Source: Emiliania huxleyi CCMP1516
Taxonomy: Eukaryota
Assembly: GCF_000372725.1 (NCBI RefSeq)
Contig: NW_005202428.1
Location: 1 to 64,000 of the forward strand
Direction: 5' to 3'
Length of the DNA: 64,000 nt
Of the stretch, positions 4,701-60,852 are shown one piece after another. Each line of letters starts with the position of its first letter. Within the stretch, counting starts at the first letter, position 1. The notes beneath the pieces are model-generated. The model searched no databases. It was given only the letters and a program-made list of their open reading frames with translations, and was not told where the DNA came from. A program made the translations under genes and the position numbers.

Positions 4701-5814
4701 TCACTTCTTGCCCAGCTCGCGCGACCGTGCCGTCGCGGCGAGCACCGCGTTCATCACCGCCGCGCGCATCCCGCCCTGCTCCAGCGCGTGGACGCCCGTG
4801 ATTGTCGTGCCGCCAGGGCTCGTCACCTGGACGGGCCAGAAACTGCTGAAAGCGAACTCTGGGGCGCCAGCCTGCGGCTGTGGCAAGGCTCGTCACCTGG
4901 TCCTTCAGCTCCCCCGGGTGCTTGCCTGTCTGCAGCACCATCGTCGCCGCGCCGCGAACGGTCTTCGCCGCGAGCGCCTAATCGCCCGAGATCACCCGAG
5001 ATCACCCGAGATTACCCGAGATTAGGCGCCGCGAACGGTCTTCGCCGCGAGCGCCGTCGCGATCGGGCGGGTGAGGCCTGCGCGCACGCCTCCGTCGGAG
5101 AGGGCCTACTCTCGGGTGACTTCGGGCCATCTCGAGGTCGCGCAGCCGCACGCGACGAGCCGGCCGCAGCTGCCTCGATAAACTGAAAGACGTAGGCGGG
5201 GCCAGAGCCTGACAGTCCCGTCACCGCGTCCAGGTCGGCCTCCTTGACCTTGAACGCCGTGCCGAGAGCGCCGAGCAGAGAGCCGACCGTCGCCTGATTC
5301 TTAATCATTCATTGGTTACTTCATACGCCCGCCGCCCGCACCGCAGAGAGCTGACCGTCGCCGCGTCGGCGGCGGAGCACGCTGCGTTGGGGGCGTAGGC
5401 GGCGGCAAGCTCGCCGACGAGGCACGGCGTGTTTGGCATCACCCGCACCACGCGGGCGCTCGAGCCGAGCCACCCCTCGAGCGACTCGATCGTGACGCCC
5501 GCGGCGATCGAGACGACGAGAGGATTGGTGCCGGAGCCCTTGATGTCTGCACACACGTCCTCCACCATCTGCGGCTTGACGGCGAGGACGATGAGGTCGG
5601 CGAACAAGGCGACGTCCTTGTTCGAACCGCCCGACGTGATGCCCAGCTCCTCGGCCAGCCCATCGACGCACGGCTGATACGCGTCCGATGCAATCACGCA
5701 GTCGGCCGGACACGTCTTCGAGCTCACGAGGCCGCGGATCATCGCGCCGGCCATCATGCCGGCACCGATGAAGCCGACCTTGACCGGTACCATCCCTTCG
5801 CTGCACAACACCAT
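4701..5814 (-). CDS. proC: Pyrroline-5-carboxylate reductase (about 5 exons)
   Basis: Rossmann motif [11 protein letters not shown], then [29 protein letters not shown] and VTSPGGTT, all diagnostic of P5CR. Confidence 0.95.
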
Positions 5815-6095
5815 TTTATAATACCAAAAGGAGGGCTACACGAGGCCCTCTACGCTGGGGCGCCGGCGCCCTACTGGCTCGGGTCGACTCGGCGCCGAAT
5901 TCGTGAAAGAGAGAAAAAAACACTCCCCCTCTGGCGGGTAAGGTGAAAACACGCAGGCCTTGGTGCTGCAGAAGCTAGGAAGGACCGCGGCGATGTGAGG
6001 TGTTGTCTACTCGGTCCACAACGTGCACCTTGGCAGGTTCGTTCTCACCGCGGTTCGAAGATGGAAGGTAAAAAAGAAGACAACCCAGGGGAGGA

Positions 6096-6647
6096 CGGCA
6101 CGCCGCCACCACACAGGGATTTTAATAAGGAGAGGAGTGTGGTGCTAGCCGTCGCCCGCCCTTGGGCGTCTGCCTCTTTCTATCTCTCTTCGCAGTCCCT
6201 CGCCGATTCTCGCTGCAACCTTCATGCCACCTCGCGGTCGTCCTCCTATGGAAGGTATAAAGTTTGCGGTCGCGCGACTTATCGGACTTTTGCAATACTC
6301 GCAAATTTGCAGCGCTGTGGTGGCAACAGCTCGGGTAAGTGTTGTCCCCGGGGGTAAGGCCTCGCCCCCGCTGCGACCGATCGCGCCCGGGCCGCACCGT
6401 GGCGGCGCAGCGCGGCTGGTCGGCCATGCACACCCGCCGCGCCTCCTCGCTCGGGCTGCTCTGCGCACTTCCAGCGATTGCCAAGGGAGGGATGGGAGAA
6501 CGGCACGCCGCCACCACACAGGGATTTTAAGGAGAGGGGTGTGATGCGCTAGCCGTCGCCTACCCTAGGGAGTCTGCCTCTTCCTATCTCTCTTCGCAGT
6601 CTCTCTCCGATTCTCGCTTCAACCTTCGTGCCACCTCGCGGCCGTCC
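6096..6647. repeat. Pair of ~148-bp direct repeats (6096-6244, 6500-6647) in the proC/coactosin divergent intergenic region
   Basis: Both begin ACGGCACGCCGCCACCACACAGGGATTTTAA and end GCCACCTCGCGGYCGTCC. A related segment lies inverted at about 39268-39310. Confidence 0.85.
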
Positions 6648-6756
6648 CACTGTGCTGTGTGAGAGACTTGTGTTGTTTAAATTCTTTTTCACGATGCCCT
6701 AAATCGCCGGCAGGGGAGACGCCGAGGCATTCAGCGAGGGCAAAAAGGCGCGAGCC

Positions 6757-9604
6757 ATGGGTTCGGTGGACGTGAGCGACGGTGGAATCTCCACGGCAAT
6801 CGCCTCGGTTCGAGACGACGGCACCGATGACATGTACGCCATCCTGAAATACGACGGCAAGGCGAGCGCCGCCCGCCCGAGCAAAGCATCGCCTCTGCAG
6901 CCCTGTCTCTCGCCTCTGCCGCGATGGCGCTGCACGGCCGCCGCAACCGACCATCAACGCCTCCTTCTCAGGCGAAGCTCATTCTCCAAAAGACCGGAAG
7001 CGGCTCGATGGACGAGATGGCCGGTTCACTCTGCAATTCGCCGGCACAGTGTGTGCTGCTCGGGAGCCTTCTCGGAGGCGCCGCGGGGGCCGCCGTAGGC
7101 GAGCTGGATGACGGCGAGGTGCAGTACGTCCTGCTGCGCGTCGAGGGCGGCCGTGACCAGGAGTCCAAGGTGTGCCCATGCCTGCCCCGGCGTCTGCTTG
7201 CCTGCCGCTTGTTGCCGTCGCCGAGCCACTGAAGAAAACTGGCACACGCCCGCACTCGCACCACAGCGCACCCCTCTGAAGCCCGTCCTCGCTGATTCGG
7301 TGCAGGCCGTCAAGTTTGTCTTCATCACGTGGGTAGGGTCGTCGGTGCAGTCAGCCCTCTCTGAGACACGACCGTCTCTGAGACACGACCGAGACATGAC
7401 ACGTCCGAGACACGTCCGAGACACGTCCGCGACACGTCCGAAACACGTCCGAGACACTGCACCGCCGGGGCAGCGAAGAGCTAGAGTGGTCGGCTCCCGC
7501 AGTGCAGGCCGCCACGGGCTTGCTGGCGTGCGCAGACCTGCAGCCCAAACACTTCCGAGACACTTCCGAGACACTTCCGTGCTCCCACCCCTGGCCAGCA
7601 CCGAGGCGCTTGGAGATGTTGCACGGTAGCTGGACGGCGGCACACAGCAGCATGGCGACGCCAAAGGTCGCACGCACACGGACCAGCTAGAGGACGGGCG
7701 GACATATCTCCCCATATCTCCCCCTATCTCCCCATATCTCCCCAGCCAGAGGACGGCCGGACAGGCAGAGGTCTGGCGAGTAGAGGCCCCGCCCACCCAG
7801 GGTACCCGCTCCGAGGACCCATTTGGGTCACTCGCCGCGGCTCCGCTCCTAGAGACCTCGAGAGAGCGTGCGTGTGCCTCTCCTCGCCAGGGCTGAGGCC
7901 CCGACCGTCGGGCAAGGCAAAAGAAGACACGCACTCGGCGACACCGCGGCCGCGGCAGCCCTGGCAGCCAGCCGCGCCAGTGCGTTCATGCCTGCTCTGG
8001 AGCACGGGCGACGGGGCACACGCTCACTCGCGGAGCACACACGGGGCATTGCAGTCAGGGAACCAGAGCTGTTGCCCGGCCGGCACAGGTGGGGAGGGGT
8101 GGCAGACGGCCCATACCCCATATCTCCCCATATCTCCCCATATCTCCCCATATCTCCCCATATCTCCCATATCTCCCCATATCTCCCCATATCTCCCCGT
8201 ACCTCCCCACATCTCCCCGTACCTCCCCGTACCTCCCCGTACCTCCCCATATCTCCCCATATCTCCCCGTACCTCCCCATATCTCCCCATATCTCCCCAT
8301 ACCCCCCCCGCACAGGTGGGAGGGATGGCAAAGGGGCGTGTGGCTAGCCACAAGATGGCGGTCAAGGTGAGTTGCCCCGAGATGGAGCCGAGATGACCCG
8401 AGATGGGCCGAGTTGTGGACTGGCTGACTAGCCGAGAGATGATGGCCGAGGATTAGCCGAGGTCTAGCCGAGGTCTAGCCGAGGTCTAGCCGAGGTCTAG
8501 CCGAGGTCTAGCCGAGGTCTAGCCGAGGTCTAGCCGAGGTCTAGCCGAGAGATAGCAATATTGATCAATTACTTAACAGCGGGACCCTGAGTATTGTAAA
8601 CACACCGTGAGGCATATCGGTTCCCTGGGAGTTCACTAGCGCTCGCTTGCTTAAGTAATTGCAATGCGCGCCTGGCGGGACACCTGCATTACTGAACCAT
8701 GAATTACAATGAAGTAACTGCGGTGCGTGCCTGGCCGCAGGACGCCCTCGGCTGGACGGTGGTTGACATCCAGGCTGACGACAAGGAGGGCCAATAGCCG
8801 AGATATGGCGAGATATGGGGAGATATGGGGAGATATGGGGAGACATCCAGGCTGACGACAAGGAGGGCCAATAGCCGCTACGAGCCGAGATCAGCCGAGA
8901 TTCGCACCTGAGATCAGCCGAGATCAGCCGAGATTCGCACCTGAGATCAGCCGAGATCAGCCGAGATTCGCACCTGAGATCAGCCGAGATCAGCCGAGAT
9001 TCGCACCTGAGATCAGCCGAGGTTCGTACCTGAGGGCGTCTCGTCATCTGGCCGAGATTCGCCGAGATTAGCCGAGATTAGCCGAGATTAGACATAGCCC
9101 GGCCGTGAGCGGCGCTTGGCGGTGAGGCAAGAAGCACCGCCCGTTCGTTTTCTTTTCTGCCCTAGGACGACATCTCAGAGGAGGTGATCCGCGAAAAGCT
9201 GAAGAAGGCGCCGGGCGCTGTAGACGGCCCTCGCATGGACCAGTCGAATGGCGTGGGACTCGTTGCTGATGTCACCTCAGGCGTGCCCCCCCCCCCCCCC
9301 CCCTCCCCTCCCCCCCCCGCGCCGTCCTCCATGCCAGGAGGCGTGTAGCGCTGACTGGCTGCTGGCGGGCTGGTTGCCTCAGGCGTCGGGCGCAAGTGAC
9401 GACCTCGGCTCCCCAGATATGGGGAGATATGGGGAGATGTGGGGAGACATGACTTAGGCGTCGGGCGCAAACTACGACCTCGGCTCGAACGCGGGCGGCA
9501 ACTACGAGTCCAAGGCGTACCCACACAGACACACAGACACAGACACACACACAGACACAGACAGACACAGACACACACACACACACACACGCACACACAC
9601 ACGC

Positions 9605-9679
<75 letters not shown>

Positions 9680-13448: not shown

Positions 13449-15478
13449 CTAGTGGTGCAGTGCCATGGCGTCGTCCACCCGCTGCAGGTTGCGGCGGGTG
13501 ATCACCTTGGTGAGGTGGCGGCGCGCGCCCAAGCACTCCTGCGTGCGTGCCTGCACCGCCGGCGAGTCGAAGTTGGCGATGGACGAGTTGGCGGCGCGGA
13601 GGTTCTGCCGCACGGCGGCCGCGAGCTCCTGAAGGTTGGCCGGCACGGCCTCGAGCTGCAGCACGGCGAGGGCGCCGTTGGTGGCCTCGTCCACCTCATC
13701 CGGCTCGCCGGCGGACTCCTGCTCGGAGCATAGAGGGAGGCTGAGAGGGCGGGGGGGGCAGGGGGGGGGAAGGGCATGCGAGTGCACACCTGTGAAGAGA
13801 TGATGGACGCGGTGGCCTCGGTTGACTGCGAGGTCTCCAGGTCGGCCGGCGCGTCCCACAGGGTGAGGAGTCCGGTGCGGTTGGCGCCGTCCTCGAGGTG
13901 TACCATGAGATGCAGCCTGTCCTCCGCCCGCGAGAGGGCGACATTGAAGATGCATCGCTCCTCGTCCGCCTCCCACGACCGCCACGGGTCGTCCTTGAGC
14001 CTGAGCCGGTCGGGCAGCGGCAGGTGGTCGGGCTGGAAGATGCATACGCGAGTCGCCTGCCGGCCCTTGTACCCGTGGATCGTGGAGACGACGAGCGTGT
14101 CCCCAGCGGCGGCGTCTTCGGTGTACACCTTCTCCAGCCACGCCGAGTACGCGGTCCGCGAGTCGAGCGCGTCGATGTCCCCCGCCGACGCCAGCTTGGA
14201 CCAAGCAGTAATCGATGCCTGCAGGGCGAGGGTGGTGTCGTGGCGCTCGTTCTGCGACGCCGGAGCGGAGCTGTCGAGGCGCAGGTTGAGCCGCGTGAGG
14301 ACGGACGACATGGGCCCCTCGAGCTCACCGAGCAGCTTGAGGACATTGTCGCGGGTGGACTTGCGGCCGACCATCTTGACGTGAATGTAGCCCTTGGAGA
14401 GCAGCACGTTGTAGATCTCGAAGACGGTGGCGGCCATGCGCGTGAGCAGGGCGGTCCTCTCCCCCGCGACGATCGGGTGGGAGTGGAAGGTGACATTCTC
14501 GCGGTACTCGCCGTCGACGTCGCGAATCTGCACGATCGTGTCGGTGGAGCCGGTGGCGGCGAGAGCCGGCTGCGTCGCCTCGATGACGCTGCGGGCGCTG
14601 CGGTAGTTGAGCATGTGGGTGTACTGCTCGCGGCCGTGCAGCATCTGCTCGAGCGTCGCCTGTGGCGAGCATGACGTGTACAGTGTCAGGAGAGGGGGGG
14701 GGGGGGGGCGTGGAAGGGGGGATGCGGGGGGAGGGTTAGGCGAGGCGGGCGCGAGGCGGGAGGGGTGACGGCAGGGCGCCTTATCGCCGCCCATCCAGTA
14801 GTACATCGACTGCGCCGGGTCACCCACCATCAAAAGGTTGGCGCGCCGGCGGACGAGTTGCAGTATGAAGAGGTAGAGGATCCGGGTCACGTCCTGCATC
14901 TCGTCGACCATCACGTGCGTCCACATGCCGAGGTCGAGGTCGAGGTAGACGACAAGGTAGACGAGATCGTGCTGGTCGACGATCGGGAAGGGCACCAGCT
15001 CCCTGGTCACCTCGTTGTAGAGGTGGGTGCAGCCGTCGACGGTGAGCTGCGTGCCGATCTGGATGGAGAGGTCGAGGCAACTCGCGGCGACTTTGAGGCC
15101 GAAGTCGATGCGCCGTGACTCGTCGCCGATCTTGCGCTCGAGCTGCAGCTTCTCCGTCTGGTTGAGCTTGCCCGTCCAGGAGGACGCGAGGACCGGCGCG
15201 AGGTTGTACTCCTCGACGAGCGCGGAGAGCGTCTCGGTGTTGTGGAACGACTCCTCCTGGGGGCAGCCGATGGCCTTCTGCCGCGCGAGGTCCATCACCT
15301 TGGCGACAAACTCGCGGTACAGCTTGGTCAGCGCCTCACCGTGCTCGAAGTTGCGGAAGTAGAAGGAGACGACGAGCCGCGTCTTCTGCTTCACCACGGA
15401 CGGCTCGAACGCGGACAGGTCCCGCGGGTCCTTCCCCGCCATGATCTTGCGGTCCTTGTGCATAGCGCGGTTCCACAT
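13449..15478 (-). CDS. UvrD/Rep-type SF1A helicase, 5'-truncated (no Walker A), with introns at about 14665-14780 and 13730-13790
   Basis: Motifs VMVDEMQD (II), VGDPAQSMY (III), NYRS (IV), VSTIHGYKGRQ (V) and EERCIFNVALSRA (VI). No A/GxxGSGKT exon found upstream. Confidence 0.85.
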
Positions 15479-15715
15479 CTGCGGCGAGGGAGCCCAGAGG
15501 CGGAGGGTGCAGTGAGAGGGGCGGCGCGGCGGCAACAGGGGCGGGGGAGGGGCGGGGGGTGGCGCACGCGCGCACGCAGTCCGTCAGTTAGTCAGTCAGA
15601 GAGACACGCCTCCGCCACCGGCTAACGCCGAAGGCATCGGCGCGCCACAGCCATCGGGAGACCAACGGCATCGGCCGCCTCTGTGACCTGACTCCTGCAA
15701 TCGAATGCGTGTGTC

Positions 15716-16846
15716 GTGTTCACAGCGCCGAGTTTGATTACATTCGGATTTCATTTTGCGTCGTTCGAAGGCAGGGCAGACCGAGCGACTCGCATGCTGC
15801 TGCTGATCCAATCCGCAGCACTCTCTCATCGCTCGCAACACCACTCCCAGTCGCCGCCGCCCCTCGTTGCTCACGACGACACGCAGGTGCCGGACATGGC
15901 AGCGCTGCCCGGTGAAGGCATGAACGTCGGCGAGCTCGCCAAGAGAGAGCGCGGAGAGGCCGATGCCGGCCGTGCCATGCGCGACTCCTTGCGCGGCTCC
16001 TTGGAGGGAGAGCACGGAGAGGCCGTTGCCGGCCGTGCCAAGCGCGGGACCTTCAAAGTGCCGATGTCGGCTACCCCGTACGGCTACACCGAGAAAGATG
16101 CGGACAAGCGCAGTTTTTACTGGAGCACCTTCTCGCCCGCAACGGGGGGTTCTCACGTCTATGCCCTGCTGGCCTTTACTTTGGTCGTGCTCGTCTTCGG
16201 CTGGGCGAGCGACATCCGCCAGCGCCTGTCCCGGCTGGAGGACGATGTCTACGGTCAGGAGGATGGTCAGGAGGATGTCGACGCAGAGACCCACACGCCC
16301 ACTGCCGATGCAGAGCCCATTGCCCAGCCGCCGGCAGTGGGCATGAGGATCTCGACGGCTGCGGTCGTCGACACACCGGAGATAGCGATACACACCGTGC
16401 AGATGTTCGAAAGCATCAAGCTTCTGCTCAATCTCGACCCGCACACCTCCCCTCTCCGCACCATCCAAGAGGCCAACAGGCGGCTCAATCTGCCCGCGGC
16501 GGGCCGATTCCGCCAGCAGGCCATCGAGGTACTGCAGTTTGTGCTTACTGCAGCCACATACTATAACGCACCCAGCCAGAGTCGCGTTGGGCGCATCTCG
16601 ACCGGCGTGCTCGTGCAGAGCATCAAGCATCTGCTCGGACTCGTCACGATCAGCGGAGGGTTTGAAGCCACTATGCGATGCGCATACGAGCGGCTCAATC
16701 TCAACATTCGCCTCCCAGAGCGCAGCACCCACTTCGCGGCGAGAGTCCGCGGGCACGCCATCGTGGTGCTGGAGAGGCTCCTGGCTGATGCAATTTCACA
16801 CACCCCACAGGGAGACCATCTCGGAGCGATGGAGATCGCAGACTGA
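15716..16846 (+). CDS. Hypothetical protein with one predicted TM helix and two internal helical repeats
   Basis: 376-aa uninterrupted ORF. Hydrophobic ALLAFTLVVLVFGW; repeated units IKLLLNL...EANRRLNL and IKHLLGL...AYERLNL. Confidence 0.55.
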   Translation: MFTAPSLITFGFHFASFEGRADRATRMLLLIQSAALSHRSQHHSQSPPPLVAHDDTQVPDMAALPGEGMNVGELAKRERGEADAGRAMRDSLRGSLEGEHGEAVAGRAKRGTFKVPMSATPYGYTEKDADKRSFYWSTFSPATGGSHVYALLAFTLVVLVFGWASDIRQRLSRLEDDVYGQEDGQEDVDAETHTPTADAEPIAQPPAVGMRISTAAVVDTPEIAIHTVQMFESIKLLLNLDPHTSPLRTIQEANRRLNLPAAGRFRQQAIEVLQFVLTAATYYNAPSQSRVGRISTGVLVQSIKHLLGLVTISGGFEATMRCAYERLNLNIRLPERSTHFAARVRGHAIVVLERLLADAISHTPQGDHLGAMEIAD

Positions 16847-17222
16847 CCACGCGCGGACTCTGCGGAGAGATGTGAGTTCCGACGCAACCTCATGTGGGGA
16901 TGGATGCTGATGGCGTGTCGAGGCGCGCAGATGTGTTTCGATGTCGCATGCTATACTGCGAGATGAGATCTACCAGCAGCAGCAGCACCACCACCACCAG
17001 CATCAACAGAGACAGGCAGTGCAGGCGCAGAGGCGCTCGCAGAGCGGCGCTCAGCGCCGCGCACGCCACGCTGCGGACCGTCGGACGAGCGCACCGTACG
17101 TCGGCGGCGAGCCGCGTCGCCAGCCGTCTCGCGAGAGAGCGGCGCCGCCGCGTGCGCGCAGCAGCCGCCGCGGCAGAGGCGAGCCGCGGCGACGTCCGCA
17201 CTAACGGATAACGGCCATTGGC

Positions 17223-17260
<38 letters not shown>

Positions 17261-17342
17261 ACTCACACATACATTTTATTTTATTTTGTTTTCGCGCCTT
17301 GTCTGTATCCGCTCGACCGCCCGCGGCGCCCCTTCATTGTCA

Positions 17343-20839: not shown

Positions 20840-20900
<61 letters not shown>

Positions 20901-21174
20901 AGGGCAGGCATCAACTCGGCCTGCGGGCGCATCTGGCATCGCCGGCCTTCCGCGTCGGCCCGATGGCCCGCTCAGCCCTGGCGACGGCTCTGGCGCGTGC
21001 CTTGCCGTGCCGTCAGCAGCGGCGGGCGAGGCTTCTGTTGCCGGGCAGGCCAGCGGGGAGGCATTGCCAAGCCGCTCTGGGCGCGGCGGAGGCGGGTTGT
21101 ATGGCGGGCCTGGCTACCCCCGGTCCGCGACGGGGAAGCGGCTCAGGCCGGAGCGGCAGGACTTGTTTGAGTGA
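17343..21174 (+). CDS. SMARCAL1: SMARCAL1/HARP-like SNF2 annealing helicase (spans the N gap)
   Basis: N-terminal [14 protein letters not shown] resembles the SMARCAL1 RPA-binding motif. Also [45 protein letters not shown] and QAEDRAHRI. Confidence 0.88.
18980..19198. other. Assembly gap (Ns)
   Basis: Run of n characters. Confidence 1.
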
Positions 21175-47058: not shown

Positions 47059-47935
47059 GATCGGGGCCATACCGAGCGAACCCCGCGGTGCAAGGCCGTC
47101 CACCGAAGCCGTCTCGGGGCAGGTCCGTCTCGAATGGATAGCCTTGGGCTCGGCCGGGTGGCTCGGCTAGCACGAGACGTGGGGACGTGTAACGACTCGA
47201 CACGGGTGGGCGAGAGCTTGAGATAGAGTCTAGCCGCCTCGAGAGAGGTTGCCCTGCGTAGTGGGGCGGAAAACCCCGCGACGCCCGTCAACATTACCAC
47301 AACCATACATAGGCGCTCGATACCCCCTCTCGCTGCCTACTCGCTGCCTCTGGGGAGGAGGGGAAGACGTAGGGCGCGCGCCACTGCGCTCGCCGTAACC
47401 GAGGCCCCTCCCCGAAAGGCAAGTCTTAGACCCATGAAATCCGAGACCCCTCCCCCCCGCCCCGATCCCCCCACCCCCTTGCTCCCCTCCCCCCCCCGGG
47501 AGGGCCGAACTGAGGCGCCCGTGGGGACCCCGCAATTCCCTTCCCCCCTCGGAGGGGGCCGGACGGAGGCGTACCCCGTGGGCCCCGCTCTTTCCTTCGC
47601 ATAGCGGCCACTCTTCGGATCGCTGGTCGAGCGACCCGGGGGATGCCCCGCGCGCCTGACCCAGGCGCGAAAACGAATCTGCGAGGCGAGGCCGCTCACG
47701 CGGCCCGATGGGGAGGAACGGGGCGAGCCCCCTCCAACCGCAACCCACCCGCGCTAGGTCCCGGGGGACGAAGGGGTCACACCCGACGACCTCGGGAACT
47801 AGCCGGGGCAGTCGGAGAAGTGGCAACTCCGTGCACTGACGGTCGGCCGCCAGAAAACACGCCTCCGTGGCTCGGGTTACACCAATCCTCGCTACCCAAC
47901 GCGGCCAAAGGATATCCACCTCGAGAACCTCGAGA
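47059..47935 (-). mobile_element. ~880-bp non-coding repeat element flanked by 11-bp direct repeats ACTTATTTACT
   Basis: ACTTATTTACT at 47048-47058 and 47936-47946; a partial second copy lies at 38676-39190. Confidence 0.65.
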
Positions 47936-47987
47936 ACTTATTTACTTACCGTCCGGGCCCGGGTCGGGCAGTTGTCTCGCAGTCGGC

Positions 47988-50900
47988 ATGGGGGCGCGCA
48001 GGACGCCGCCGCACGGCTCGCACGGCAGCGCGGACATCTCCCACGATGCGGACTCCTACCCTCAGGAGGTCGAGGTCGGCAACGTCGAGTACAAGCTGAA
48101 GCTCGTCTCGCCGACGCCGGCGCGCTTCCAGCAGCTGGTGACGCAGCTGGCTTACCGGCTTGCCGAGGGGCGGGGCCGTGCGGTTTACCTCCTCGGCGTG
48201 GAGGACGACGGCGCGCTCCACGGTCTCTGCCCTCGCGACATGTCCGCGTCGCTTGGCACTCTCCGCCGGATGTGCGGCCACGTTTCGGCGCGTATGGTGG
48301 TCGCCGCGCAGCGGACCAAGGGCGTGCCGACGGGGCGGATAGCCGAGGTGCGAATCGAGCAGTTTGCGGAGTGCGCGCAGGTGGAGGTGCGGATCGCGGT
48401 GCTGGGCAGCGCCCAGGCGGGCAAGTCTTCGGTGGTGGGCGTCCTCGCGGGAGGCCCAGGCGCGCTTCTTTGGCAGCACAGAACCCTCCGTTGCGCTCAG
48501 CAGTCTGCGACTCACACCGGTCCGGTGGTGGGGCAGGCGCGCTCGACGACGGCAAGGGCTCCGCGCGGACGCTCGTGATGCGGCACATGCACGAGCTGGA
48601 GACAGGCGCAACGTCCTCCATCTCACAGCAAGTGCTCGGCTTTGACGGCGCCTGCCGGCTGCTCAGCTGTGAACAGCGTCTCTTCACACCTCCTGCTGTG
48701 AACAGGTGCTCGGCTTTGACGGCGCCTGCCGGCTGCTCAACTGGACGGAGGAGCTGTGAACAGCGTCTCTTCACACCTCTTGCCGTGAATAGGCGCCTCG
48801 CGCCTGCTCAACTGGACGGAGGAGCTGGCGCGCACGACGTCGGAGCTGTGCGCCTCCTCGTCGCGGGTGATGACGCTGCTCGATCTCTGCGGCGAAGGCA
48901 GCTACTAATTAACTATTCATTAACTATTAATTAGTTGTTAATTAACTATTGATTACGCTGCTGGACCTCTGCGGCGAAGGCAGCTACTCACGCAACCACA
49001 CAGCCCCGGGCCCCAAGATCGCACACGCACGGGCGGTCGAGAAGGGAGAGACAGCGGCGGCAGTCAGAAGGCAGCACTGCGTCCCAGGAAGGCGAATGCG
49101 AGGCCGGCCTCAAGTGTCGCTGCCCACAGCCAGTCCAGTCCAGCCTTACACACACCGAGGCACGGAGCACGGGCCCACGCGCACACACACGCGCGGCTAC
49201 ACACTCCCCACGCTCGCCGCACACGAGCGGCGCGACAAGCCGACGCGAGGCCACTCTGTGGCACCGGCCACAGTCACGTCTGTGTCGGCCGGCGCCTCCC
49301 CCACGCCACAGGCCGCTACCCCAAGACGACGCTGTGAATTCACTACGGATTGGGTATGACTGAACGATGAATCAGGCCGGTTTCTCAAGACGACGCTCGC
49401 GGGTCTGACCGCGCACGCGCCTGACTACGCGCTGCTCTGCGTCGGGGCGGACGCCGGCATTCATTAACGATTAATTAAATACTAATTAGCTATTAATTAG
49501 GCGCTGCTCTGCGTCGGGGCGGACGTCGGCATCACCGCGGCCACGCGGCTCCACGCGCTGCTTGCGGCGGGGCAGGGCGTCCTAGAAGCAGAGGACGTGT
49601 TCTTGTCTCCCGACTAGCGCCCGAGAGGACACGTCTTCAGCCGTGCTCATCCGTATTCCGCTGCACTCACCTGTGTCACTGTCCGTTGTCTTCCCGCGGT
49701 GCTCTGAATACGCTGCGCAGAACCGCCCTGAGGCTGGTGTCTTCAGCGCGTAGGCTGGGCGTGCCCGTCGTGGCGCTGCTCTGCAAGGCGGGCGTGGTGG
49801 ACGACACCTCATTCACAGCTCAATCAGAGTCCATTCAGAGTGAACTAACGATGAATTAGGCGGACGTGGCGGACGCCACCTCGCTGGGCAACCTCGCCGA
49901 GGCGACGCTGCGGCTGCTGGCGGAGTGCGGCCTGCCGTCCCCGCTCTACCTCGAGAGCGAGGCCGAGCTCGAGGCGAGATGTAGCCGAGAGGCAGCCGAG
50001 AGGCAGCCGAGAGGCAGCCGAGAGGCAGCCGAGAGGCAGCCGAGAGGCAGCCGAGAGGCAGCCGAGAGGCAGCCGAGAGGCAGCCGAGAGGCAGCCGAGA
50101 GGCAGCCGAGAGGCAGCCGAGAGGCAGCGGGGAGGCAGCCGAGAGGCAGCGGAGATGCGGATACACCCCTCGCCAGCCCCCCTCGCCAAGAGAGGGGCGG
50201 CGTGCGCCGGTCGAACGAGCGGTGCTTCGTCGACTCTTTCCCTACTACTATGTTCACAGTTCACCCACACTGACTACACATTGGTGAGCCACACATTGAT
50301 GAACCAGCGGTGCCTCCGCCAGGCGGCGATGCTGGCCGAGCCCCCCCTAATTAATTAATTCATCAATCAATTAGTTAATTCATTTACTTAGGCGGCGGTG
50401 CTGGCCGAGCCGCCCCCCTTCTCTGCGCACTGCCCCTGCCTCGCCCTCCCGCCCAGCGGCGCGGACGGCGGCAGCGAGGACGACAGCGGCGGCGCCGAGC
50501 CGGACGCCGCCGCCGCCGGCGGCGGCGGAGGCGGCGGCGGCGGCGGAGGCGGCGGAGGCGGCGGAGGCGGCGGAGGCGGCGGAGGCGGCGGAGGCGGCGG
50601 CGGCGGCGGAGGCGGCGGAGGCGGCGGAGGCGGCGGAGGCGGCGGAGGCGGCGGAGGCGGCGGAGGCGGCGGAGGCGGCGGCGGCGGAGGCGGCGGCGGC
50701 GGCGGCGGCGGTGGCGGCGGCGGATGCGGCGGTGGGGGCGGTGGGGGCGGTGGGGGCGGCTTCGGCGCTGGCGACGGGGGCGCGGGCGGCGTCACCGGCA
50801 GCGGCGAGGTGGGAGGCGAGGCGGGGGGCTCTGCCGTCCTGCTCTCCTCCTCTCTGCCGACGGCGGGGTCGACGGCTTCGATGCGCAGTTGTGGAAGCAG

Positions 50901-53900
50901 CGACGGCGGCGGGCCCTAGAGAAGCGGAGCACGTATCTCCCCATATCTCGCCGCCCCAGAGAAGCGGAGCGCGTATCTCCCCATATCTCGCCGCCCCAGA
51001 GAAGCGGAGCGCGTATCTCGCCATATCTCGCCGCCCTAGAGAAGCGGAGCGCGTATCTCCCCATATCTCGCCGCCCCAGAGAAGCGGAGCACGTATCTCC
51101 CCATATCTCGCCGCCCCAGAGAAGCGGAGCGCGTATCTCCCCATATCTCGCCGCCCCAGAGAAGCGGAGCGCGTATCTCCCCATATCTCGCCGCCCCAGA
51201 GAAGCGGAGCGCGTATCTCCCCATATCTCGCCGCCCCAGAGAAGCGGAGCGCGTATCTCCCCATATCTCGCCGCCCCAGAGAAGCGGAGCGCGTATCTCC
51301 CCATATCTCGCCGCCCCAGAGAAGCGGAGCGCGTATCTTCCCATATCTCGCCGCCCCAGAGAAGCGGAGCGCGTATCTCCCCATATCTCGCCGCCCTAGA
51401 GAAGCGGAGCGCGTATCTCCCCATATCTCGCCGCCCCAGAGAAGCGGAGCACGTATCTCCCCATATCTCGCCGCCCCAGAGAAGCGGAGCGCGTATCTCC
51501 CCATATCTCGCCGCGCCAGAGAAGCGGAGCGCGTATCTCCCCATATCTCGCCGCCCCAGAGAAGCGGAGCGCGTATCTCCCCATATCTCGCCGCCCCAGA
51601 GAAGCGGAGCGCGTATCTCTCCATATCTCGCACGCCCTAGACTCCCTAGAAGCTGACGCAGCACGCACTCTTGCACTCCAACCGGCGCTCGAGAGGGCAC
51701 GGACTCCGCGCCGCATTCGGCCGTTGCTCCGCTGCAGCTCTGCTGTAGCTCTGCTGTAGTCACTGTGTGCTCGCAGCACCTCGTCCTCACGCTGGGTGCT
51801 CTGACTACTCTGCACAATGCCTGCTCTGATACTCTGCACAATGCCTGCTATGATACTCTGCACAATGCCTGCTCTGATACTCTGCACAATGCCTGCTCTG
51901 ATACTCTGCACAATGCCTGCTATGATACTCTGCACAATGCCTGCTCTGATACTCTGCACAATGCCTGCTATGGTACTCTGCACAATGCCTGCTCTGATAC
52001 TCTGCACAATGCCTGCTCTGATACTCTGCACAATGCCTGCTCTGACTACTCTGCACAATGCCTGCTATGATACTCTGCACAATGCCTGTGCTCTGACTAC
52101 TCTGCACAATGCCTGCTCTGATACTCTGCACAATTCCTGCTATGACTACTCTGCACAATGCCTGCTATGATACTCTGCACAATTCCTGCTATGACTACTC
52201 TGCACAATGCCTGCTCTGATACTCTGCACAATGCCTGCTCTGACTACTCTGCACAATGCCGCCTCCCCGCCCCGAGGGTCAACCGGCATTCTTTGCGCAG
52301 GCGGGGGAGGGTCGACTGGCGGAACAGAGGAGGCGGGCGACGGCGCCACGTCGGCGCAGGCGGAGGCTGTCACGCCGCTGCTCGGGCCCCTAGAAGCGGA
52401 AGATCTCCCCATATCTCCCCCCGTATCTCCCCACATCTCGGACCCCTAGTAGCGGGAGGCGCACTCGGAAGTCACTCGGACCAGCGCTCGAGAGGACGCG
52501 GACTCCGCTGCACTCCGCCGCAGTCGGCTGGGTTCGCTGTGTCCGTAGCCCCTCGTACTCCACGCCGGTGCTCTTCATTGCACTGCGCACGACACCGCAT
52601 TCCCGCGCCGAGAGGGCGGTGTGTCCAGCGCTCCGGCTCGGCATCTCTGCGCGGTCCGGGGGGCCTCTTAGTCCACCATTAGTGGTTGATGCCTTGAGAA
52701 TTCACCACGAGTGAGTGGCAGGCTCGGCATCTCTGCGCGGTCCGGCTAGTAGTGAATTACGTAATCATTCTTACTTGTTGATTTACCACGAGTGGCAGGC
52801 TCGGCATCTCTGCGCGGTCCGGAGCCGGCCTCCCCCTGCTCATCCGCACTCTCGGGCGGCTCCCGCCCCGCGACTGGGGACTTCTGCAAGGCGACGACAC
52901 GCCGCCGCCTCTGTTCTCTGCGTCGGGGGTGTGCGCCCGCAGTGGACGGACCGTCGGGTGGAGCTGATGATAGGAGGGCGGCTGCTGCTCTCCATCGACG
53001 GGTGCCACATGCCGCGCTCCGCTGCCCCCGTGCTCAAGGTTCGGGTACCGTGGGGGTAGGGGATGGGTGCGGGTACCGTGGGGGTAGGGGATGGGTGCGG
53101 GTACCGTGGGGGTAGGGGATGGGTTCGGGTACCGTGGGGGTAGGGGATGGGTTCGGGTACCGTGGGGGTAGGGGATGGGTGCGGGTACCGTGGGGGTAGG
53201 GGATGGGGAGAGCCCTGCTGACTCGTAGCCGGTTGACGGTGACTAGGACGACGACCCTTGGGTCTGCGACGCGCGGGAGTGCGGCGGGGAGGCGCCGGAG
53301 CCTAGAAGCGGACGATCTCCCCATATCTCCCCCCGTATCTCCCCCGTATCTCCCCCACACCTGGCAGCGCGGAGCCTAGAAGCGGAAGACGCACTCTTGT
53401 CCTCCAACCAGCGCTCGAGAGGACACGCACTCATCCGCGCTCCGCCGTATTCAGCCGTGGCATGGTCGCTGTCTCCGCACCCCGTGGTCGCTGCTTCCGC
53501 ACCCCGTGTGCGCCACGCGGAGCTCGGCGTACACTGCACAAGACCGCCAGGCTGGCGTGTTCGCACCGTAGGAGCCGGAGCCGTGCGATGGGCCCGTCGT
53601 CTCAGGCAGACTGCTACCCATCTCGGCTGCATCTCGGCCACACCTCGGCTGTCTCTCGGCGATCTGTCGCGCACATCTGTGGAGCTCGCTCAAGTGCCGC
53701 TCGCGCGCGGGGGGGGCGCTCTATCTCCCCATATCTCCCCACACCTCCCTGTATCTCCCCGTATCTCGGCCCAGGCACGCTGCTGCGCGGCGCACTCTGC
53801 GCGCGCGCCGCCGTCCCCTCGCCCGCCCCCGGCCGGTTGCTCGTCGGCCCCGACGCGCGCGGGCGTTGGGCGCCGGCGACGCTGCGGTCGATCAAGTACA

Positions 53901-55291
53901 AGGAGCTCGGTGTCGGCCGTGCGGTCGCCGGCCAGTCCGCCACCGTCAGCTTGCAGGTCGCCCTAGCGGGTACCGTGGGGGGTAGGGGACGGGTGCGGGT
54001 GCCGTGGGGGTAGGCCAGTCCGCCACGGTCAGCTTGCAGGTCGGCGCCCTAGGGTTCGGGTCCCGGGGGGGTAGGGGATGGTTCGGGCTACCGTGGGGTA
54101 GGGGAGTCCGCCACGGTAAGCTTGCACGTTGCGGCACGCCCCCCCGCGCTGCCCCTCCCCCCCCCCCCCCCCCCTGAGCGTGCAGCTTGGCGTGTGTGCG
54201 CGGTTTGTGCCGCGCCCTCCTCCGCCGCGTGAGTGCGCCTCCCGTCTCGCAGGTTGCGGACGGCGGCGGCTTCAAGCTGCGGCGCGGCATGGTCCTCGTC
54301 GACGAGCGCACGCGGCCGGCGCCGAGCGCCGTGTGCGAGTTCGGGGACGTCTCCGCCACACGTCGGTGACATGTCCGAGACACGCCCGCAGGCGCCGTCC
54401 GCCGTGTGGGAGTTCACCGCGCGCGTGACGGCGATCCAGCTGCCGGCCGAGGTCGTGGCTTACTTCATACTGATTCATGGTAATTAATTAGTTAATAAGA
54501 TCCAGCTGCCGGCCAAGGTCGTGGCTTAATTAATACTGATTCATGGTAATTAATTAGTTAATAAGATCCAGCTGCCGGCCAAGGTCGTGGCTTAATTAAT
54601 ACTGATTCATGGTAGTTAACTAATTAATACTAAGATCCAGCTGCCGGCCAAGGTCGTGGCTGGCGCGGAGCTCGTGCTGTACTGTCTGGGCGTCAAGCAG
54701 GTCGCGCGCGTGCTGCCCGCCGTCAGGAGCGGCGACGCGTCGCCGCCGCACTCTTCCGCCCGAAGTGGCAGCGGAGGCAGCGAGAGCAGAGGCAGCGGAG
54801 GCAGCGAGAGCAGAGGCAGCGGCGGCAGCGGGGGCGGAGGCAGCGGAGGCAGCGAGAGCAGAGGCAGCGGCGGCAGCGGGGGCGGAGGCAGGGGGGGCGA
54901 GGGGAGGGGCGGTGAGGGCAGGGGGGCGGAGGCGAGGGGCGACGGCGACAGCGGCGGCGGGCTGCTCCTCCGGTGCCGCGCCGCGCGGCGTCCTTCTTTT
55001 CTGACCGCTGGCTTTGCGGGGTGTAGGGCTGCTCCGGTACGGCGGCACACAGCTGCTGCGGCTCCGCTTCGTCCACGCGGCGGAGTACTTGCTCGTGGGC
55101 GCCGCTGCTCACAGTGAACGAGGGGCGCGCCGGTGGGAGAGCGGCTGCTCACCGGCTGGCTGTGAACAGGCGCCGCGTGTGTGCTGCGCGAGGGTTCTGC
55201 AGGAGGGCGCGACCTCGGCGTCGCCGTCGGCCGAATACACGCCACCGCAAGCGCGCCAGAGTGCGGCGAGGAGCAGCAGCAGGGAACTTAG
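47988..55291 (+). CDS. GTPBP2: GTPBP1/GTPBP2-family translational GTPase, highly intron-rich
   Basis: [42 protein letters not shown]...AGKSS, LDDGKG.AR....RH.HE.ETG.TSSIS, LLDLCGE, FLKTT, PDYALL, GP...G.W, AGQSAT, LRRGMVL, WEF.A and REG...GVAVG; stop at 55289-55291. Paralog assignment is tentative. Confidence 0.85.
50917..51630. repeat. 40-bp intronic minisatellite (about 18 copies)
   Basis: Unit GAAGCGGAGCGCGTATCTCCCCATATCTCGCCGCCCCAGA. Confidence 0.95.
51798..52260. repeat. 24-bp intronic minisatellite
   Basis: Unit ACTCTGCACAATGCCTGCTMTGAT. Confidence 0.95.
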
Positions 55292-57708: not shown

Positions 57709-58173
57709 GGGAGTCCGCTGCTTGCAGTTTAAATGTTTCCCCTTACCTTACCTTTTTCCCTAAGCGTAAGCCGTATGTTCGGGGGGGGGTTCCACCCAGC
57801 GAAGACTGAGCGGGAAGAGCTTCCTCAGCCACTCGATGTGGGCAAAGCCGTGCTTCCCGCGAGCGCGCTCGTCGCGCATCCGCTCGTGGTGGGCCTGCCG
57901 ACGCGCCACGCCGGCGCCCGTGTGCCTCGCCGCCGCGTCCGCCTCCGTCCGGCGCCGGCATCGATCGCTGCCACAGGGCGTTCCACAGGTCGTCCCAACA
58001 GGTCGTCCCACAAGAGCGGACGCATCCGAACCGCCGCATTTCGCCCGCCGAAAAGTCTCCCACTCGCGCCCTCCCCAAACCCAAATGCTCTCCTCTCTCT
58101 CTTTGACTCATTCGTGACTTTGTACATACATACAAAAAGAAATATATATGCGAATAGCGTCGAAGAGAGACCG

Positions 58174-59558
58174 CTGAGCCCTGGCTGTCAGGCTGTCAGG
58201 TGCTGTCAGGTGATCTGTCAGGCTGTCGGGCAGCTGTCAGGCGCTGTCAGGTGCCTCTGTCAGACCAGCTGTCGGGTGCTGTCAGTGCTGTCAGGTGCTG
58301 TCGGGTGCGTGTCTGACATCAGAGGGGATCTGTAGCTGTCAGGTGCTGTCGGAGCTGTCGGGTGTTGCTGTCAGACGCTGTCGGAGCTGTCAGAGCTGTC
58401 AGGCTGCTGCTGCTGTCAGACGTTGGGCTGTTGCTGTCAGGTGCTGTCAGGTGGTGCTGTCGGGTGCTGTCAGGCTCTGACACACACCAGCCACACTTAT
58501 GACACTATCAAGAGGAGACCAGCAGGACTCTGCTGCACATACTCTAGTCTCTACTCTGCCTCCGGTCCCACCATCTTCTTCATGGTGGACGTCACCATCT
58601 TCTTGTCTGCCGCACTGAGAGAATAGCAGAGAGGCAGGGTGGAGTGCTTCTTCAGGTACACCTTGCTGATGATCTGGTAGTTGCTGGTCCAGCGGAAGGC
58701 CTCCCCATCGTTGTCGCTCGTCAGTAGTACTTGCACGCTCTGTTCTGGTAGCGCGGGCCGTCTGGGGGGGTCCCGTCACCCTTCACCTCACGGTACCACC
58801 GGAGGATAAAGAGGCCCTTGGGGTCGTTGATGAAGACCCCGTTGCTGCGCTGACTCATCGAGAGCTGGCGCAGGTACTCTGCGCTCGAGCTGCCAGTGGC
58901 GCGGCGCGCGTCTACGCCGGCGGCTACGCAGCTGCCCCCCTCCTACGGCGTGATCACGCCGGCAGCGGCGGCCGCCTGGGGAGCGCAGATGGCGGCGCAG
59001 GCGCAGGCGGCGGCGGCACAGACGGCGGCGGCCACCCCCACCCAGACGCTGTAGGCATATGGCTGTAGGGCCCCAGAAGGCTAGCTGGTAGCTTCATTTG
59101 TAAGGTAAGGTAAGGTACCTTGCTTCATTTGTAGTAGCACAGCCGCGGGTCCGCAGAGGTGGGGCGGGAGGGTTGAGAGAGAGACCCATGACCAACCCAT
59201 GACTACATGAACCACACACACATGTCTTTGCATGTAATAGTTTTGTTATACCCTCATGGGGCACAAGAAAGAGGCTGCACGGACTGTGTACGGTCTGTGC
59301 TGCTGTCGGGCTGGTCGGGCTGTCGGGCTGTCAGCGCTGCTGTCAGGCCGCTGTGTGCTGTCGGGCTGTCGGGCAGCTGTCAGGCTGTCAGGTTAGGGCC
59401 TGACAGCGACGGGACGCCTCTGATGTCAGGCTCTGCTGTCAGGCTGTCAGATACGTGCTGTCAGGCTGTCAGAGAAAGTGCTGTCAACGCTGTCAGGCTG
59501 TCGGGCACTGTCAGGCGCTGTCCGGGGTTTGCTGTCAGGCTGTCAGACCAGGGCTCAG
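58174..59558. mobile_element. Non-autonomous hAT- or MULE-like element with subterminal CTGTCAG arrays and internal gene fragments
   Basis: TIR CTGAGCCCTGG/CCAGGGCTCAG. TSD AGAGACCG (58166-58173, 59559-59566), or 10-bp GAGAGACCGC if the TIR is one base shorter. CTGTCRG arrays at 58185-58480 and 59300-59547. Confidence 0.88.
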
Positions 59559-59722
59559 AGAGACCGCGTACCGCGAGGAGGACCGAGGGGCACACGGTAG
59601 AGCTGGCGGCCCCAGTGTGTCAAGAAGTGTACACGGTACACGCTGCACGTACACCCTACAGCCTGGTGCAGCATGAGTGTACGGGCGAGACCGAGAGAGC
59701 CGTCACCCGTCCACTCCCAGAG

Positions 59723-60852
59723 CTACCGCGGCCGCTTGCCGATCGGGCACGACACGTGGTGGGGCGAGCGAACCTCCACCTCGAGGACGAGCGCCTGTTC
59801 ACAGTCAAGGCTGTGAATGGACGCCGCCCACAGCCACAGCGGCGACCCGCCTGCTCTGGGTAGAGCTCTGGGCGCCGCTGGCTCGCCGGTAGAGCCTCCG
59901 AGCTCCTTGATGCGGAACTGGCCGCACGCCTGCACCTCCTCCCACGCCATCGCGTTGCCAAACTCGGGCGGGCTGCGCGCGTAGGCCGGGTTGGCGTAGA
60001 GCAGCCCTGCCGCCTACGCTCGCGCAGTCTCCGGCTCATCTCGGGGCAGTCTCGCGCACTCTCGTTGGCGTAGAGCAGCCCTGCCGCCTCGCAAGCGCGG
60101 AAACATGCGGCAAAGCGCTCCGCCGTCTCGAGGTAGACACAGATGTGGTACGCTGCCGCCTCGTTCCGCTCATACTCGTCTGGAGGCGGCGCTGAGCGCC
60201 TCTCGGCGAACACGAGTTGCTGCGGCGCGGCGCCGAAACGAACCACGCACTGCTGCAAGCCGGCGGTGTCTTCGCCACTCCCCGCCCCGCCGGCAACGCC
60301 GCCCTCGCACCACAGAGGCGGCGTGCCTGAAGGCTGAAGCTCGCACGCCTCGCCGCCCAGCGTCTCCTTCCAGAAGTGCGCAAGCCGCGCGGCGGCGCCG
60401 GGGCGCACATCGTGCACGGCGCGGACCAGACGCGTCAGAGCACCGCTGCCGGAGGGGTGGCACCCCCAGCCATCGCAGCTTCCGGGCGCCTCGTGCCGAA
60501 TCACAAAGGCGTTGCCGTACGGGCAGCGGACTCGCAGGACGTCGCTCGCGCCATCTCGCACATGGCCACGCAGCTTGTGCCGCGTGAGCCGGTCGGCAAT
60601 CGCGTCGAGCCGCTCCGACGTCCACAGCTCGATCTCGCCCGCCCAGCGCTGCGCCGCGGTCACCGGTGTGACACCCTCCGCCTTACCATACTTGCGCAGC
60701 AGGTGGAACTGCGTCGCTCCCATGTTGACGTGAAGCTGCCGCTCGTTCGTCGTCGGCTCATTCACGACGGCGCCGAGGCAGGAGACGTAAAACTCGCGTG
60801 CCGTCGGCTCGTCGAGGATGTTGAGGTTGATGTGCTCAAGCAGCGCAGTCAT
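59723..60852 (-). CDS. VOC/glyoxalase-like protein (3 exons)
   Basis: LLEHINLNI.D...AREFYV..LG, LHVNMGATQFHL, RCPYGN.F, YHICVY, QFRIK and LEVEVRS..H..CP. Confidence 0.8.

What the first reader, a model, noticed from the sequence alone, without database searches (positions are those of the whole stretch)
4817..60089. Introns that begin with a near-perfect copy of the next exon's start: a window-wide intron-generating signature
Seen: across unrelated genes, introns are bracketed by long direct repeats of coding sequence. proC: 4949-4978 = 5026-5055 (30/30), 5275-5294 ~ 5343-5362 (19/20), 4817-4830 = 4887-4900 (14/14). Coactosin: 8765-8800 ~ 8843-8878 and 9381-9411 ~ 9456-9486. GTPBP: 48870-48906 ~ 48952-48988, 49429-49460 ~ 49501-49532, 50322-50347 ~ 50391-50418, 54320-54342 ~ 54392-54415. 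VOC: 59990-60015 = 60064-60089 (26/26). Between the two copies lies a short core that supplies the AG acceptor, while the donor (often GC) falls at the start of the first copy. Inference: introns arise by insertion of a core with a long, variable (14-37 bp) target duplication at G|GC or G|GT sites, as in staggered-break repair or target-primed insertion. This would also explain frequent GC donors. Known Introners are mostly DNA-transposon-like with short fixed TSDs, so this looks mechanistically different. The high identity of the repeats implies recent or ongoing activity.
Basis: partly seen in the sequence, partly recalled or inferred. Interest (0 to 1): 0.9.

Follow-up and report, generated by a model that had tools for sequence, protein, structure and literature searches.

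The report
Algal introns built from duplicated exon
In the alga Emiliania huxleyi many ~70-base introns are a 14-37-base copy of the next exon plus a ~40-base tail often shared with introns of unrelated genes, and some wild contigs lack them, so new introns likely arise when an old intron's tail is copied, probably via RNA, into a staggered DNA break.

Summary
Real and genome-wide. The host is Emiliania huxleyi. RNA contigs and protein homology show clean splicing. One 40-nt core is a dispersed family: at 62 of 71 distinct sites in marine metagenome contigs it follows a 14-37-nt copy of the downstream exon, giving 59-78-nt introns, nearly all in sense, mostly with G|GC or G|GT donors. The 3' end is fixed; the 5' end is fuzzy and can carry a parent intron's own exon copy. 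One whole 74-nt intron was copied into another gene with no duplication. Four filled/empty pairs were found. Many unrelated cores share the geometry. Best reading: one-ended copy-and-paste of intron tails into staggered breaks, likely RNA-templated; HUH transposition (Replitron-1/Helitron2-like) and DNA-templated repair remain open. E. huxleyi introners are already catalogued, with duplications called unresolved, absent or 2-4 nt; my ten searches listed no report of the long duplication. This scan noted a similar 15-nt footprint before in another haptophyte (e1-2577349, unchecked). New variant of introner; enzyme unknown.

The parts
4827..4896 (-). proC intron 4, 70 nt, GT donor; 14-nt repeat spans the junction (4 nt upstream, 10 downstream)
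   Evidence: spliced protein 268/269 identical to P0001
4978..5054 (-). proC intron 3, 77 nt, GC donor; first 29 nt identical to next exon; 10-mer repeat core
5106..5173 (-). proC intron 2, 68 nt, GC donor; no detectable duplication
5294..5361 (-). proC intron 1, 68 nt, GC donor; 18 of first 19 nt match next exon; AT-rich core
7683..7763 (+). 22-nt duplication around a 10-mer repeat core, apparently inside an intron (offset 59)
   Evidence: intron context read from sequence
8765..8877 (+). 36-nt perfect duplication that appears to span an existing donor; core is a G-rich 10-mer repeat; not a new intron
   Evidence: in-frame stop inside the repeat; no RNA laid
9383..9457 (+). predicted 75-nt intron, GC donor, about 29-nt copy of next exon
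   Evidence: no RNA laid
48460..48536 (+). GTPBP intron, 77 nt, GC donor, 10-nt junction repeat
   Evidence: RNA joint in X10 and X12
48632..48705 (+). 74-nt unit: 34-nt exon copy plus 40-nt family core; removed together with 48722-48792 as 145 nt (one intron, or two introns with a microexon; not separable)
48666..48705 (+). 40-nt dispersed core, copy 1: 11-nt terminal direct repeats, small hairpins, ends in the AG acceptor
48722..48792 (+). 71-nt unit, GC donor, 31-nt exon copy plus core copy 2 (48753-48792)
48868..48988 (+). 39-nt duplication spanning the donor at 48898, AT-rich core; lies in intron 48898-49375, which also holds an older 63-nt unit at 49313-49375
   Evidence: (X12 record 8)
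49429..49500 (+). 72-nt intron, GC donor, 32-nt exon copy (31/32), AT-rich core; absent from contig L080
49788..49859 (+). 72-nt intron, GC donor, 23-nt exon copy
50323..50391 (+). predicted 69-nt intron, GC donor, 25-nt exon copy, AT-rich core
   Evidence: no RNA laid
52636..52822 (+). nested events: three copies of a 24-nt exon start; the second duplication (33 nt) spans the earlier acceptor
53931..54013 (+). predicted 83-nt intron whose core resembles the 28-mer satellite at 53042-53207; followed by a second, degenerate unit
54319..54391 (+). predicted 73-nt intron, GC donor, 24-nt exon copy
54433..54661 (+). tandem array of the unit [exon copy + AT-rich core], period about 66, 3.4 copies
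60014..60087 (-). predicted 74-nt intron, AG|GC on both sides, first 24 nt identical to next exon
   Evidence: no RNA laid

Best explanation
These are spliced introns made of a 14-37-nt copy of the downstream exon plus a ~40-nt tail, and they likely arise when the 3' end of an existing intron is copied, probably from spliced intron RNA by target-primed synthesis, into a predicted staggered break whose fill-in would duplicate the exon and supply the donor. Shown: the architecture, splicing, the fixed 3' and fuzzy 5' junctions, intron-to-intron copying, and filled/empty pairs. Inferred: a staggered break with nicks 14-37 nt apart; a precise join of the intron's AG end at one nick; microhomology joining at the other; an RNA template; selection keeping mainly exonic events that leave a donor at the duplication start and a 59-78-nt intron. 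The enzyme is unknown. My odds: intron gain by one-ended copying about 0.9; RNA template about 0.5.
For: Splicing: RNA joints and pieces in X10 and X12; spliced proC 268/269 identical to transcript-like P0001 and collinear with haptophyte homologues; spliced GTPBP collinear with its closest homologue at six junctions, all GC donors. Family: 62 of 71 distinct sites have the duplication above the 99th percentile of 1790 mismatched pairs; it starts at exon base 1 in 53 of 62 and within 4 nt in all 62, with no parent exon seen after the AG. Introns 59-78 nt; donors G|GC 26, G|GT 19, G|GA 6 of 60. Sense orientation 54 of 59, 37:1 where confident. 5' microhomology of >=2 nt at 22 of 28 direct junctions, three being arrays, against 14% by chance. 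Carry-over: L001 shares 16 nt with L037's own exon copy and the same core variant; L023 and L078 share 8 nt with L019's. L057 holds L082's whole 74-nt intron (72/74) in an unrelated reading frame with no duplication, both ends at the parent's splice sites; it is spliced exactly in X11 and X14, and DNA runs X2 and X6 hold both junctions. Filled/empty pairs in 4 of 6 pairs aligned; for 49429-49500 the empty copy equals the exon copy, whose Val is shared with the closest homologue P0129.
Against: No reverse transcriptase or other enzyme was found or searched genome-wide (no genome held). Of 93 other events, 37 have no donor at the repeat start, and among 49 non-donor events AG ends are not enriched (17 of 49, about 40% expected), so not every insert is an intron 3' end. 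The 40-nt core has 11-nt terminal direct repeats and hairpins, as expected of a HUH element. Precise ends and sense bias can be produced by selection. The whole-intron case is a single event. Empty contigs could be losses through the direct repeat or assembler collapses; L027/L063 are otherwise 100% identical. DNA runs X2 and X6 showed no empty site at the GTPBP introns or at L057 (the joint table was cut). The 71 sites were found with an exact 27-nt pattern, so truncated cores are excluded by design.
Confidence: 0.5

Rival explanations
1. One-ended DNA copy-and-paste by a HUH endonuclease (Replitron-1- or Helitron2-like): the 40-nt core is a minimal non-autonomous element, its fixed end happens to be a splice acceptor, and the variable duplication and fuzzy end come from the transposition reaction.
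For: Replitron-1/N1 insertions are orientation-specific at a dinucleotide, have short terminal direct repeats, a fuzzy end carrying parental flank, and variable duplications. Helitron2 CRe-1/2/3 have intact 3' ends, 7-19-nt (up to 443) duplications, captured 5' sequence, and no duplication when the 5' end is complete. The core matches this geometry and has 11-nt terminal repeats, perfect in 41 of 71, plus hairpins.
Against: Among 114 cores, 62 are singletons and the rest fall in 11 clusters, yet all share the geometry; one transposase would need shared ends. Craig's survey names only two haptophytes with Replitron proteins, not E. huxleyi. The core is far shorter than the 52-53-nt ends alignable between Replitron-1 and N1.
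Confidence: 0.22
2. Ordinary repair of staggered double-strand breaks with a DNA-templated patch (polymerase-theta-like), as proposed for Daphnia, with selection keeping only spliceable outcomes; abundant intron repeats are simply the commonest templates.
For: Same offsets (89 of 136 hits at 60-79) for many unrelated and simple-repeat cores, including events inside introns or across old splice sites; no AG excess in the non-donor class; microhomology at junctions.
Against: Random patching predicts many ragged, antisense or intronic copies of the 40-nt core; 93 of 98 matches keep the acceptor end and orientation is 54:5 sense. Daphnia junction repeats are 4-12 nt, against 14-37 here.
Confidence: 0.2
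3. Old introns whose 5' part was overwritten by spliced cDNA (partial intron loss), so the positions are ancient and nothing was gained.
For: It would also give an intron that starts with the next exon. Intron positions in other haptophytes could not be checked.
Against: The same 40-nt core sits in 71 unrelated sites with few variants; parent-to-child carry-over and a whole-intron copy exist; empty alleles exist.
Confidence: 0.05
4. Assembly artefact or coding tandem duplications.
For: Repeats of 30 nt or more can confuse short-read assembly; one RNA run has contigs that run into intron sequence.
Against: Two independent DNA data sets and contig L080 carry the same inserts; RNA removes them; lengths are spread over all three frames (21/18/21).
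Confidence: 0.01

Closest known systems
Introners of E. huxleyi CCMP1516 in Gozashti et al. 2022 (PMC9860276) and 2025 (PMC12130899)
   Same: Same species; repeated introns with listed lengths 37 and 70; 82% in genes; one 2025 family is 'co-opt 5', carry 3'' with '10bp terminal direct repeats'. The family here may be among them.
   Different: Duplications are listed as '?', 'N' or 2-4 nt; families are unclassified or called LTR; low-complexity families were filtered out.
Symbiodinium, Polarella and Aureococcus introner-like elements
   Same: Element carries the acceptor; donor recruited from the target duplication; GC and GA donors.
   Different: Fixed 4- or 8-nt duplications, with terminal inverted repeats in Symbiodinium; here 14-37 nt, variable, direct terminal repeats, fuzzy 5' end, many unrelated cores.
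Replitron-1/N1 of Chlamydomonas reinhardtii (Craig 2023, PMC10288648)
   Same: Copy-and-paste, one fixed and one fuzzy end carrying parental flank, variable duplication, short terminal direct repeats, orientation-specific.
   Different: 910-3600 nt, known transposase, not described as making introns in the parts read; no partner found here.
Helitron2 families CRe-1/2/3 (Bao and Jurka 2013, PMC3627910)
   Same: One-ended; intact 3' end; variable duplications; none when the 5' end is complete.
   Different: Long elements inserting after TTTT; mostly 7-19-nt duplications; no intron creation in the passages read.
Daphnia pulex neointrons from staggered-break repair (PMC4202315)
   Same: New introns with a junction repeat of exon sequence; presence/absence polymorphism; repeated internal events.
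   Different: Repeats 4-12 nt; source of inserts mostly unknown; no copied family.
[quoted passage not shown]
   Same: Precise 3' junction; error-prone 5' junction with truncation, microhomology and extra bases.
   Different: Ribozyme plus its own RT; the model read shows no long target duplication; spliceosomal reverse splicing into DNA is not known.

Membership tests
Introner (intron-generating repeat family) | Many similar introns at unrelated sites | tested here: met
   71 distinct sites share the 40-nt core
Introner (intron-generating repeat family) | Spliced out without changing the protein | tested here: met
Introner (intron-generating repeat family) | Presence/absence among genotypes | tested here: inconclusive
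   4 filled/empty pairs, all for other cores or units, none for the 40-nt family; loss or collapse not excluded
MITE-like introner (DDE cut-and-paste) | Short fixed-length target duplication | tested here: not met
   14-37 nt at 54 sites; none at L057
MITE-like introner (DDE cut-and-paste) | Terminal inverted repeats and two defined ends | tested here: not met
   terminal repeats are direct; 5' end fuzzy with parental carry-over
Replitron / Helitron2 (HUH) | Short terminal direct repeats or end hairpins | tested here: met
   11-nt direct repeats and predicted ssDNA hairpins in the 40-nt core only; fold energies not compared with shuffles
Replitron / Helitron2 (HUH) | One fixed end, one fuzzy end with parental flank, variable duplication | tested here: met
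Replitron / Helitron2 (HUH) | Autonomous Rep or RepHel partner with matching termini | not testable with these tools
   no genome held
Non-LTR retrotransposition product (TPRT) | Precise 3' end, truncated 5' end with microhomology, variable duplication | tested here: met
   the TPRT signature is recalled from general knowledge
Non-LTR retrotransposition product (TPRT) | Poly(A) or repeat tail shared with an autonomous element | tested here: not met
   the 40-nt core ends in the acceptor AG with no tail; end-phase test on simple-repeat cores inconclusive
Spliceosomal intron transposition via RNA | Copied unit bounded by the parent's splice sites | tested here: inconclusive
   3' end at AG in 62 of 62 duplication-bearing sites and both ends in one case, but selection predicts the same; non-donor events lack AG excess
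Tandem-duplication intron (AG|GT inside a duplicated exon segment) | Intron consists only of duplicated local sequence | tested here: not met
   about 40 nt of each unit is foreign to the local exon; in 29 of 93 other events a splice-site pair does lie inside the repeat

The most novel reading that the evidence does not exclude
Any spliced intron RNA in E. huxleyi can act as the mobile unit: its 3' end is joined to a nick in a transcribed exon and copied, usually for about 40 nt and sometimes whole, while a 14-37-nt staggered break builds the donor. The genome would then record ongoing RNA-mediated spliceosomal intron transposition with traceable parent-child pairs, and this one process would account for much of the species' GC-donor, ~70-nt, repeat-filled intron population.
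Probability: 0.3. Interest if true: 0.92.

Novelty: new variant of a known kind. Interest (0 to 1): 0.76.

Why it matters
How new spliceosomal introns arise is an open question, and cases with a visible parent are rare. Here each young intron carries a copy of its own exon, which works as a barcode: it dates the event, marks the original locus, and lets child insertions be traced to parents. That makes RNA-mediated, HUH-mediated and repair-mediated gain directly testable in a species with long-read genomes and large natural populations. It also offers a mechanistic source for the majority GC donors reported in E. huxleyi, shows that introner screens which look for short duplications or drop low-complexity families can miss this class, and bears on gene prediction (the NCBI model of this proC is 194 aa against 276 aa from transcript-like records).

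Tried and rejected
No own genome was held, so genome-wide work rests on 90 metagenome loci (185 kb) selected by one exact 27-nt pattern. The same pattern had 0 matches in viral contigs. The repeat finder was swamped by microsatellites. The homologue search used a wrong frame and is void; it was repeated. The open-frame test could not tell strand (53 of 57 on both strands). The codon model had one training gene in the wrong frame and was redone. Mismatches between copies showed no third-position excess (7/16/15; 12 synonymous, 26 not), so no sign that intronic copies are constrained or come from other alleles. Length compensation (donor-to-core SD 3.7 against 5.8 under independence) is partly built into the definitions and is not used. 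A fixed end phase in simple-repeat cores (telomerase-like or LINE-tail idea) was inconclusive (14, 4 and 1 events). AG ends in non-donor events were not enriched. Contig depth over the core is orders of magnitude above flanks but is not a copy number. No empty site in DNA runs X2 and X6. A sequence look-up in earlier findings gave two unrelated notes and a place look-up gave none. I considered that L080's empty site was a recent loss because the intron copy might hold the ancestral residue; the closest homologue has the exon's residue, so the test does not show loss, though 17 more distant homologues have Ala and only that one has Val.
Full report
Observation. All ten repeat pairs are present, two with a one-base slip. 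A scan of offsets 40-300 after masking tandem repeats gave 43 hits, 24 at offsets 59-90 (p about 1e-11, hits not fully independent); ten shuffles gave 0-2. Eight of the ten are introns that start with the next exon's first bases. The pair at 48868 spans an RNA-supported donor, and the pair at 8765 appears to do the same.

Host. The proC exon's best hit P0001 (99%) clusters with proteins named Emiliania huxleyi CCMP1516, followed by other haptophytes. GC content is 65%. Feldmesser et al. report 56-65% GC donors in this species (PMC4028052, passages).

Splicing. For proC, the only intron set that rebuilds P0001 has four introns of 68, 68, 77 and 70 nt (268 of 269 residues identical); three of four carry the duplication. 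For GTPBP, RNA contigs from two studies join 48456-48534 and 48646-48792, and the pieces of X12 record 8 imply four more junctions by length arithmetic. The spliced product is collinear with its closest homologue and all six donors are GC. DNA runs X2 and X6 carry the inserts, so they are not a window misassembly.

A dispersed core. The core at 48666-48705 drew contigs from many other loci, with loose ends at both borders and contigs of the form core, 21-29 nt of exon-like sequence, core. One exact 27-nt pattern found 98 matches in 90 metagenome loci. I dropped 5 matches without a recognisable acceptor end, 3 too near a contig end, and 19 repeats of the same site, leaving 71. Sixty of 71 have an upstream copy of the downstream exon by ungapped score (5 of 1500 mismatched pairs), 62 of 71 by gapped score. 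The copy starts at the first exon base in 53 of 62 and within 4 nt in all. Duplications run 14-37 nt (54 sites after removing six array or indel loci), introns 59-78 nt. Donors are G|GC 26, G|GT 19, G|GA 6, other GT 4, other 5. A codon model (55 of 55 strands right in leave-one-gene-out) puts the host gene in sense at 54 of 59 sites. Nine of 71 sites fail the test; some look like decayed duplications and one is the whole-intron case below.

One-ended copying. The 3' junction is fixed. The 5' junction is direct at 28 sites, with microhomology of 2 nt or more at 22 of them (14% by chance; three are arrays), or has 1-19 extra bases at 32 sites. Some extra bases come from another locus's own exon copy: L001 shares 16 nt and the core variant with L037; L023 and L078 share 8 nt and the variant with L019. 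L057 holds the entire 74-nt intron of L082 (72 of 74), whose first 35 nt are a perfect copy of L082's exon, inside an unrelated membrane-transporter-like frame with no duplication (the transporter label is my reading of the translation). RNA runs X11 and X14 remove exactly these 74 nt, and DNA runs X2 and X6 each hold the child junction and a second contig that leaves at the donor, as the parent would.

Generality. Outside the anchor, the loci hold 136 further repeats, 89 at offsets 60-79 (some are the same site in two contigs). Among 114 cores from loci and window, 52 fall in 11 clusters (10- and 11-mer repeats, AT-rich, the 40-nt family) and 62 are singletons; medians are repeat 26, core 43, offset 70. 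Of 93 non-redundant other events (nine redundant or overlapping locus rows, six window rows and contig-edge rows dropped), 56 have a donor and AG at the repeat start (28% by chance), 29 have them inside the repeat, 8 have none; donors are GC 30, GT 14, GA 1, against exonic GGC 104, GGT 49, GGA 36. The non-donor events show no excess of AG ends (17 of 49, about 40% expected). This counts against a spliced-intron 3' end as the template for every insert.

Polymorphism. I aligned six pairs that showed gaps or lower identity in an all-against-all search. Four differ by exactly one unit: L080 lacks window 49429-49500 while keeping neighbouring introns; L039, L063 and L033 lack units of 67, 70 and 68 nt. 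In L080 and L039 the single copy equals the exon copy; for L080 the exon residue is shared with the closest homologue. This fits a pre-insertion allele, but loss through the repeat or assembler collapse gives the same picture. Tandem arrays of the unit (window 54433; L004, L006, L051, L083) and a copy-number difference between L048 and L077 show the repeat is recombinogenic or slips.

Mechanism. Shown: architecture, splicing, copying between introns. Inferred: a staggered break, fill-in that duplicates the exon, a precise join at the AG end and a microhomology join at the other. I put an RNA template first (0.5) because the fixed end is the splice acceptor, the longest carry-over stops at the parent's donor, no parental exon follows the AG at 62 sites, and unrelated cores share the geometry. 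A HUH element (0.22) fits the terminal direct repeats and has close precedents. DNA-templated repair with selection (0.2) fits the non-donor class. These may coexist.

What is known. Gozashti et al. 2022 list 653 introners in five E. huxleyi families of average length 37 or 70, duplication '?' or 'N' (PMC9860276 supplement rows, file cut when stored; bioRxiv version, passages). The 2025 paper lists three families with automated duplication calls of 2 or 4 nt or none (PMC12130899, passages and supplement rows). Donor-from-duplication introners with 4-8-nt duplications are described in dinoflagellates (10.1101/2020.10.14.339549, part 1 of 4; review PMC11282704, passages). Daphnia repeats are 4-12 nt (PMC4202315, passages; review PMC3443670, passages). 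Replitron-1 (bioRxiv 10.1101/2022.12.15.520654, parts 1-4 of 5; PMC10288648, passages and part of section 9) and Helitron2 CRe families (PMC3627910, passages) show the one-ended geometry. Linear group II retrohoming (PMC3280974, abstract and Introduction) and intron-lariat spliceosome activity (PMC11146597, passages) are the RNA analogues. A recent G. huxleyi genome preprint mentions introns once, in a figure legend (10.1101/2024.05.26.595999, passages; its supplements are closed). Ten searches listed no paper describing long exon duplications at E. huxleyi introns. The 2013 genome paper and Huff et al. 2016 did not appear in the listings and were not read, and the introner consensus files were not seen; any of these may bear on novelty. 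An earlier, unchecked note of this scan describes a 15-nt version in another haptophyte (e1-2577349).

Verdict. A real, spliced, widespread and probably still active way of making introns. It belongs with introners by behaviour, fails the short-duplication and inverted-repeat tests of the MITE-like class, and has no identified enzyme. New variant of a known kind; interest 0.76.

Noticed in passing
window 2616-3312 and 29749-30436: Two inverted copies of a ~700-nt dispersed repeat, also present in L024 at 85-90% identity; possibly a non-autonomous element.
   Followed up: no
window 13505-21171: ORFs with UvrD helicase and SNF2/Helicase_C hits around an N gap at 18980-19198.
   Followed up: no
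window 4600-5793: The NCBI model in this proC cluster is 194 aa, against 276 aa for transcript-like records; missed GC-donor introns are a likely cause.
   Followed up: partly
window 606-770, 1075-1378; 33148-33378: Arrays of period 61-70 that look like expanded [duplicate + core] units outside the genes studied.
   Followed up: no
L067 near 3113; L012 near 1767: Cores made of telomere-like TTAGGG/CTAACC repeats between long direct repeats with the same 64-65-nt offset.
   Followed up: partly
L033, L036, L048, L075, L083 at the core insertion: The donor's second base differs from the exon copy: three GC introns from GT exon starts, one the reverse, one GA from GC; may reflect donor turnover after insertion.
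   Followed up: no
window 55097-55169: A longer variant of the core family with the same acceptor end and repeated internal motifs, with little exon duplication left.
   Followed up: no
window 47900-47937, 49004-49141, 49572-49753: Further high-copy repeats upstream of and inside GTPBP introns, seen as depth peaks in all four runs.
   Followed up: no
window 50913-51637 and 51797-52260: Long 40-mer and 24-mer minisatellites inside the GTPBP locus; the 40-mer joins two motifs that also occur in intron cores.
   Followed up: no
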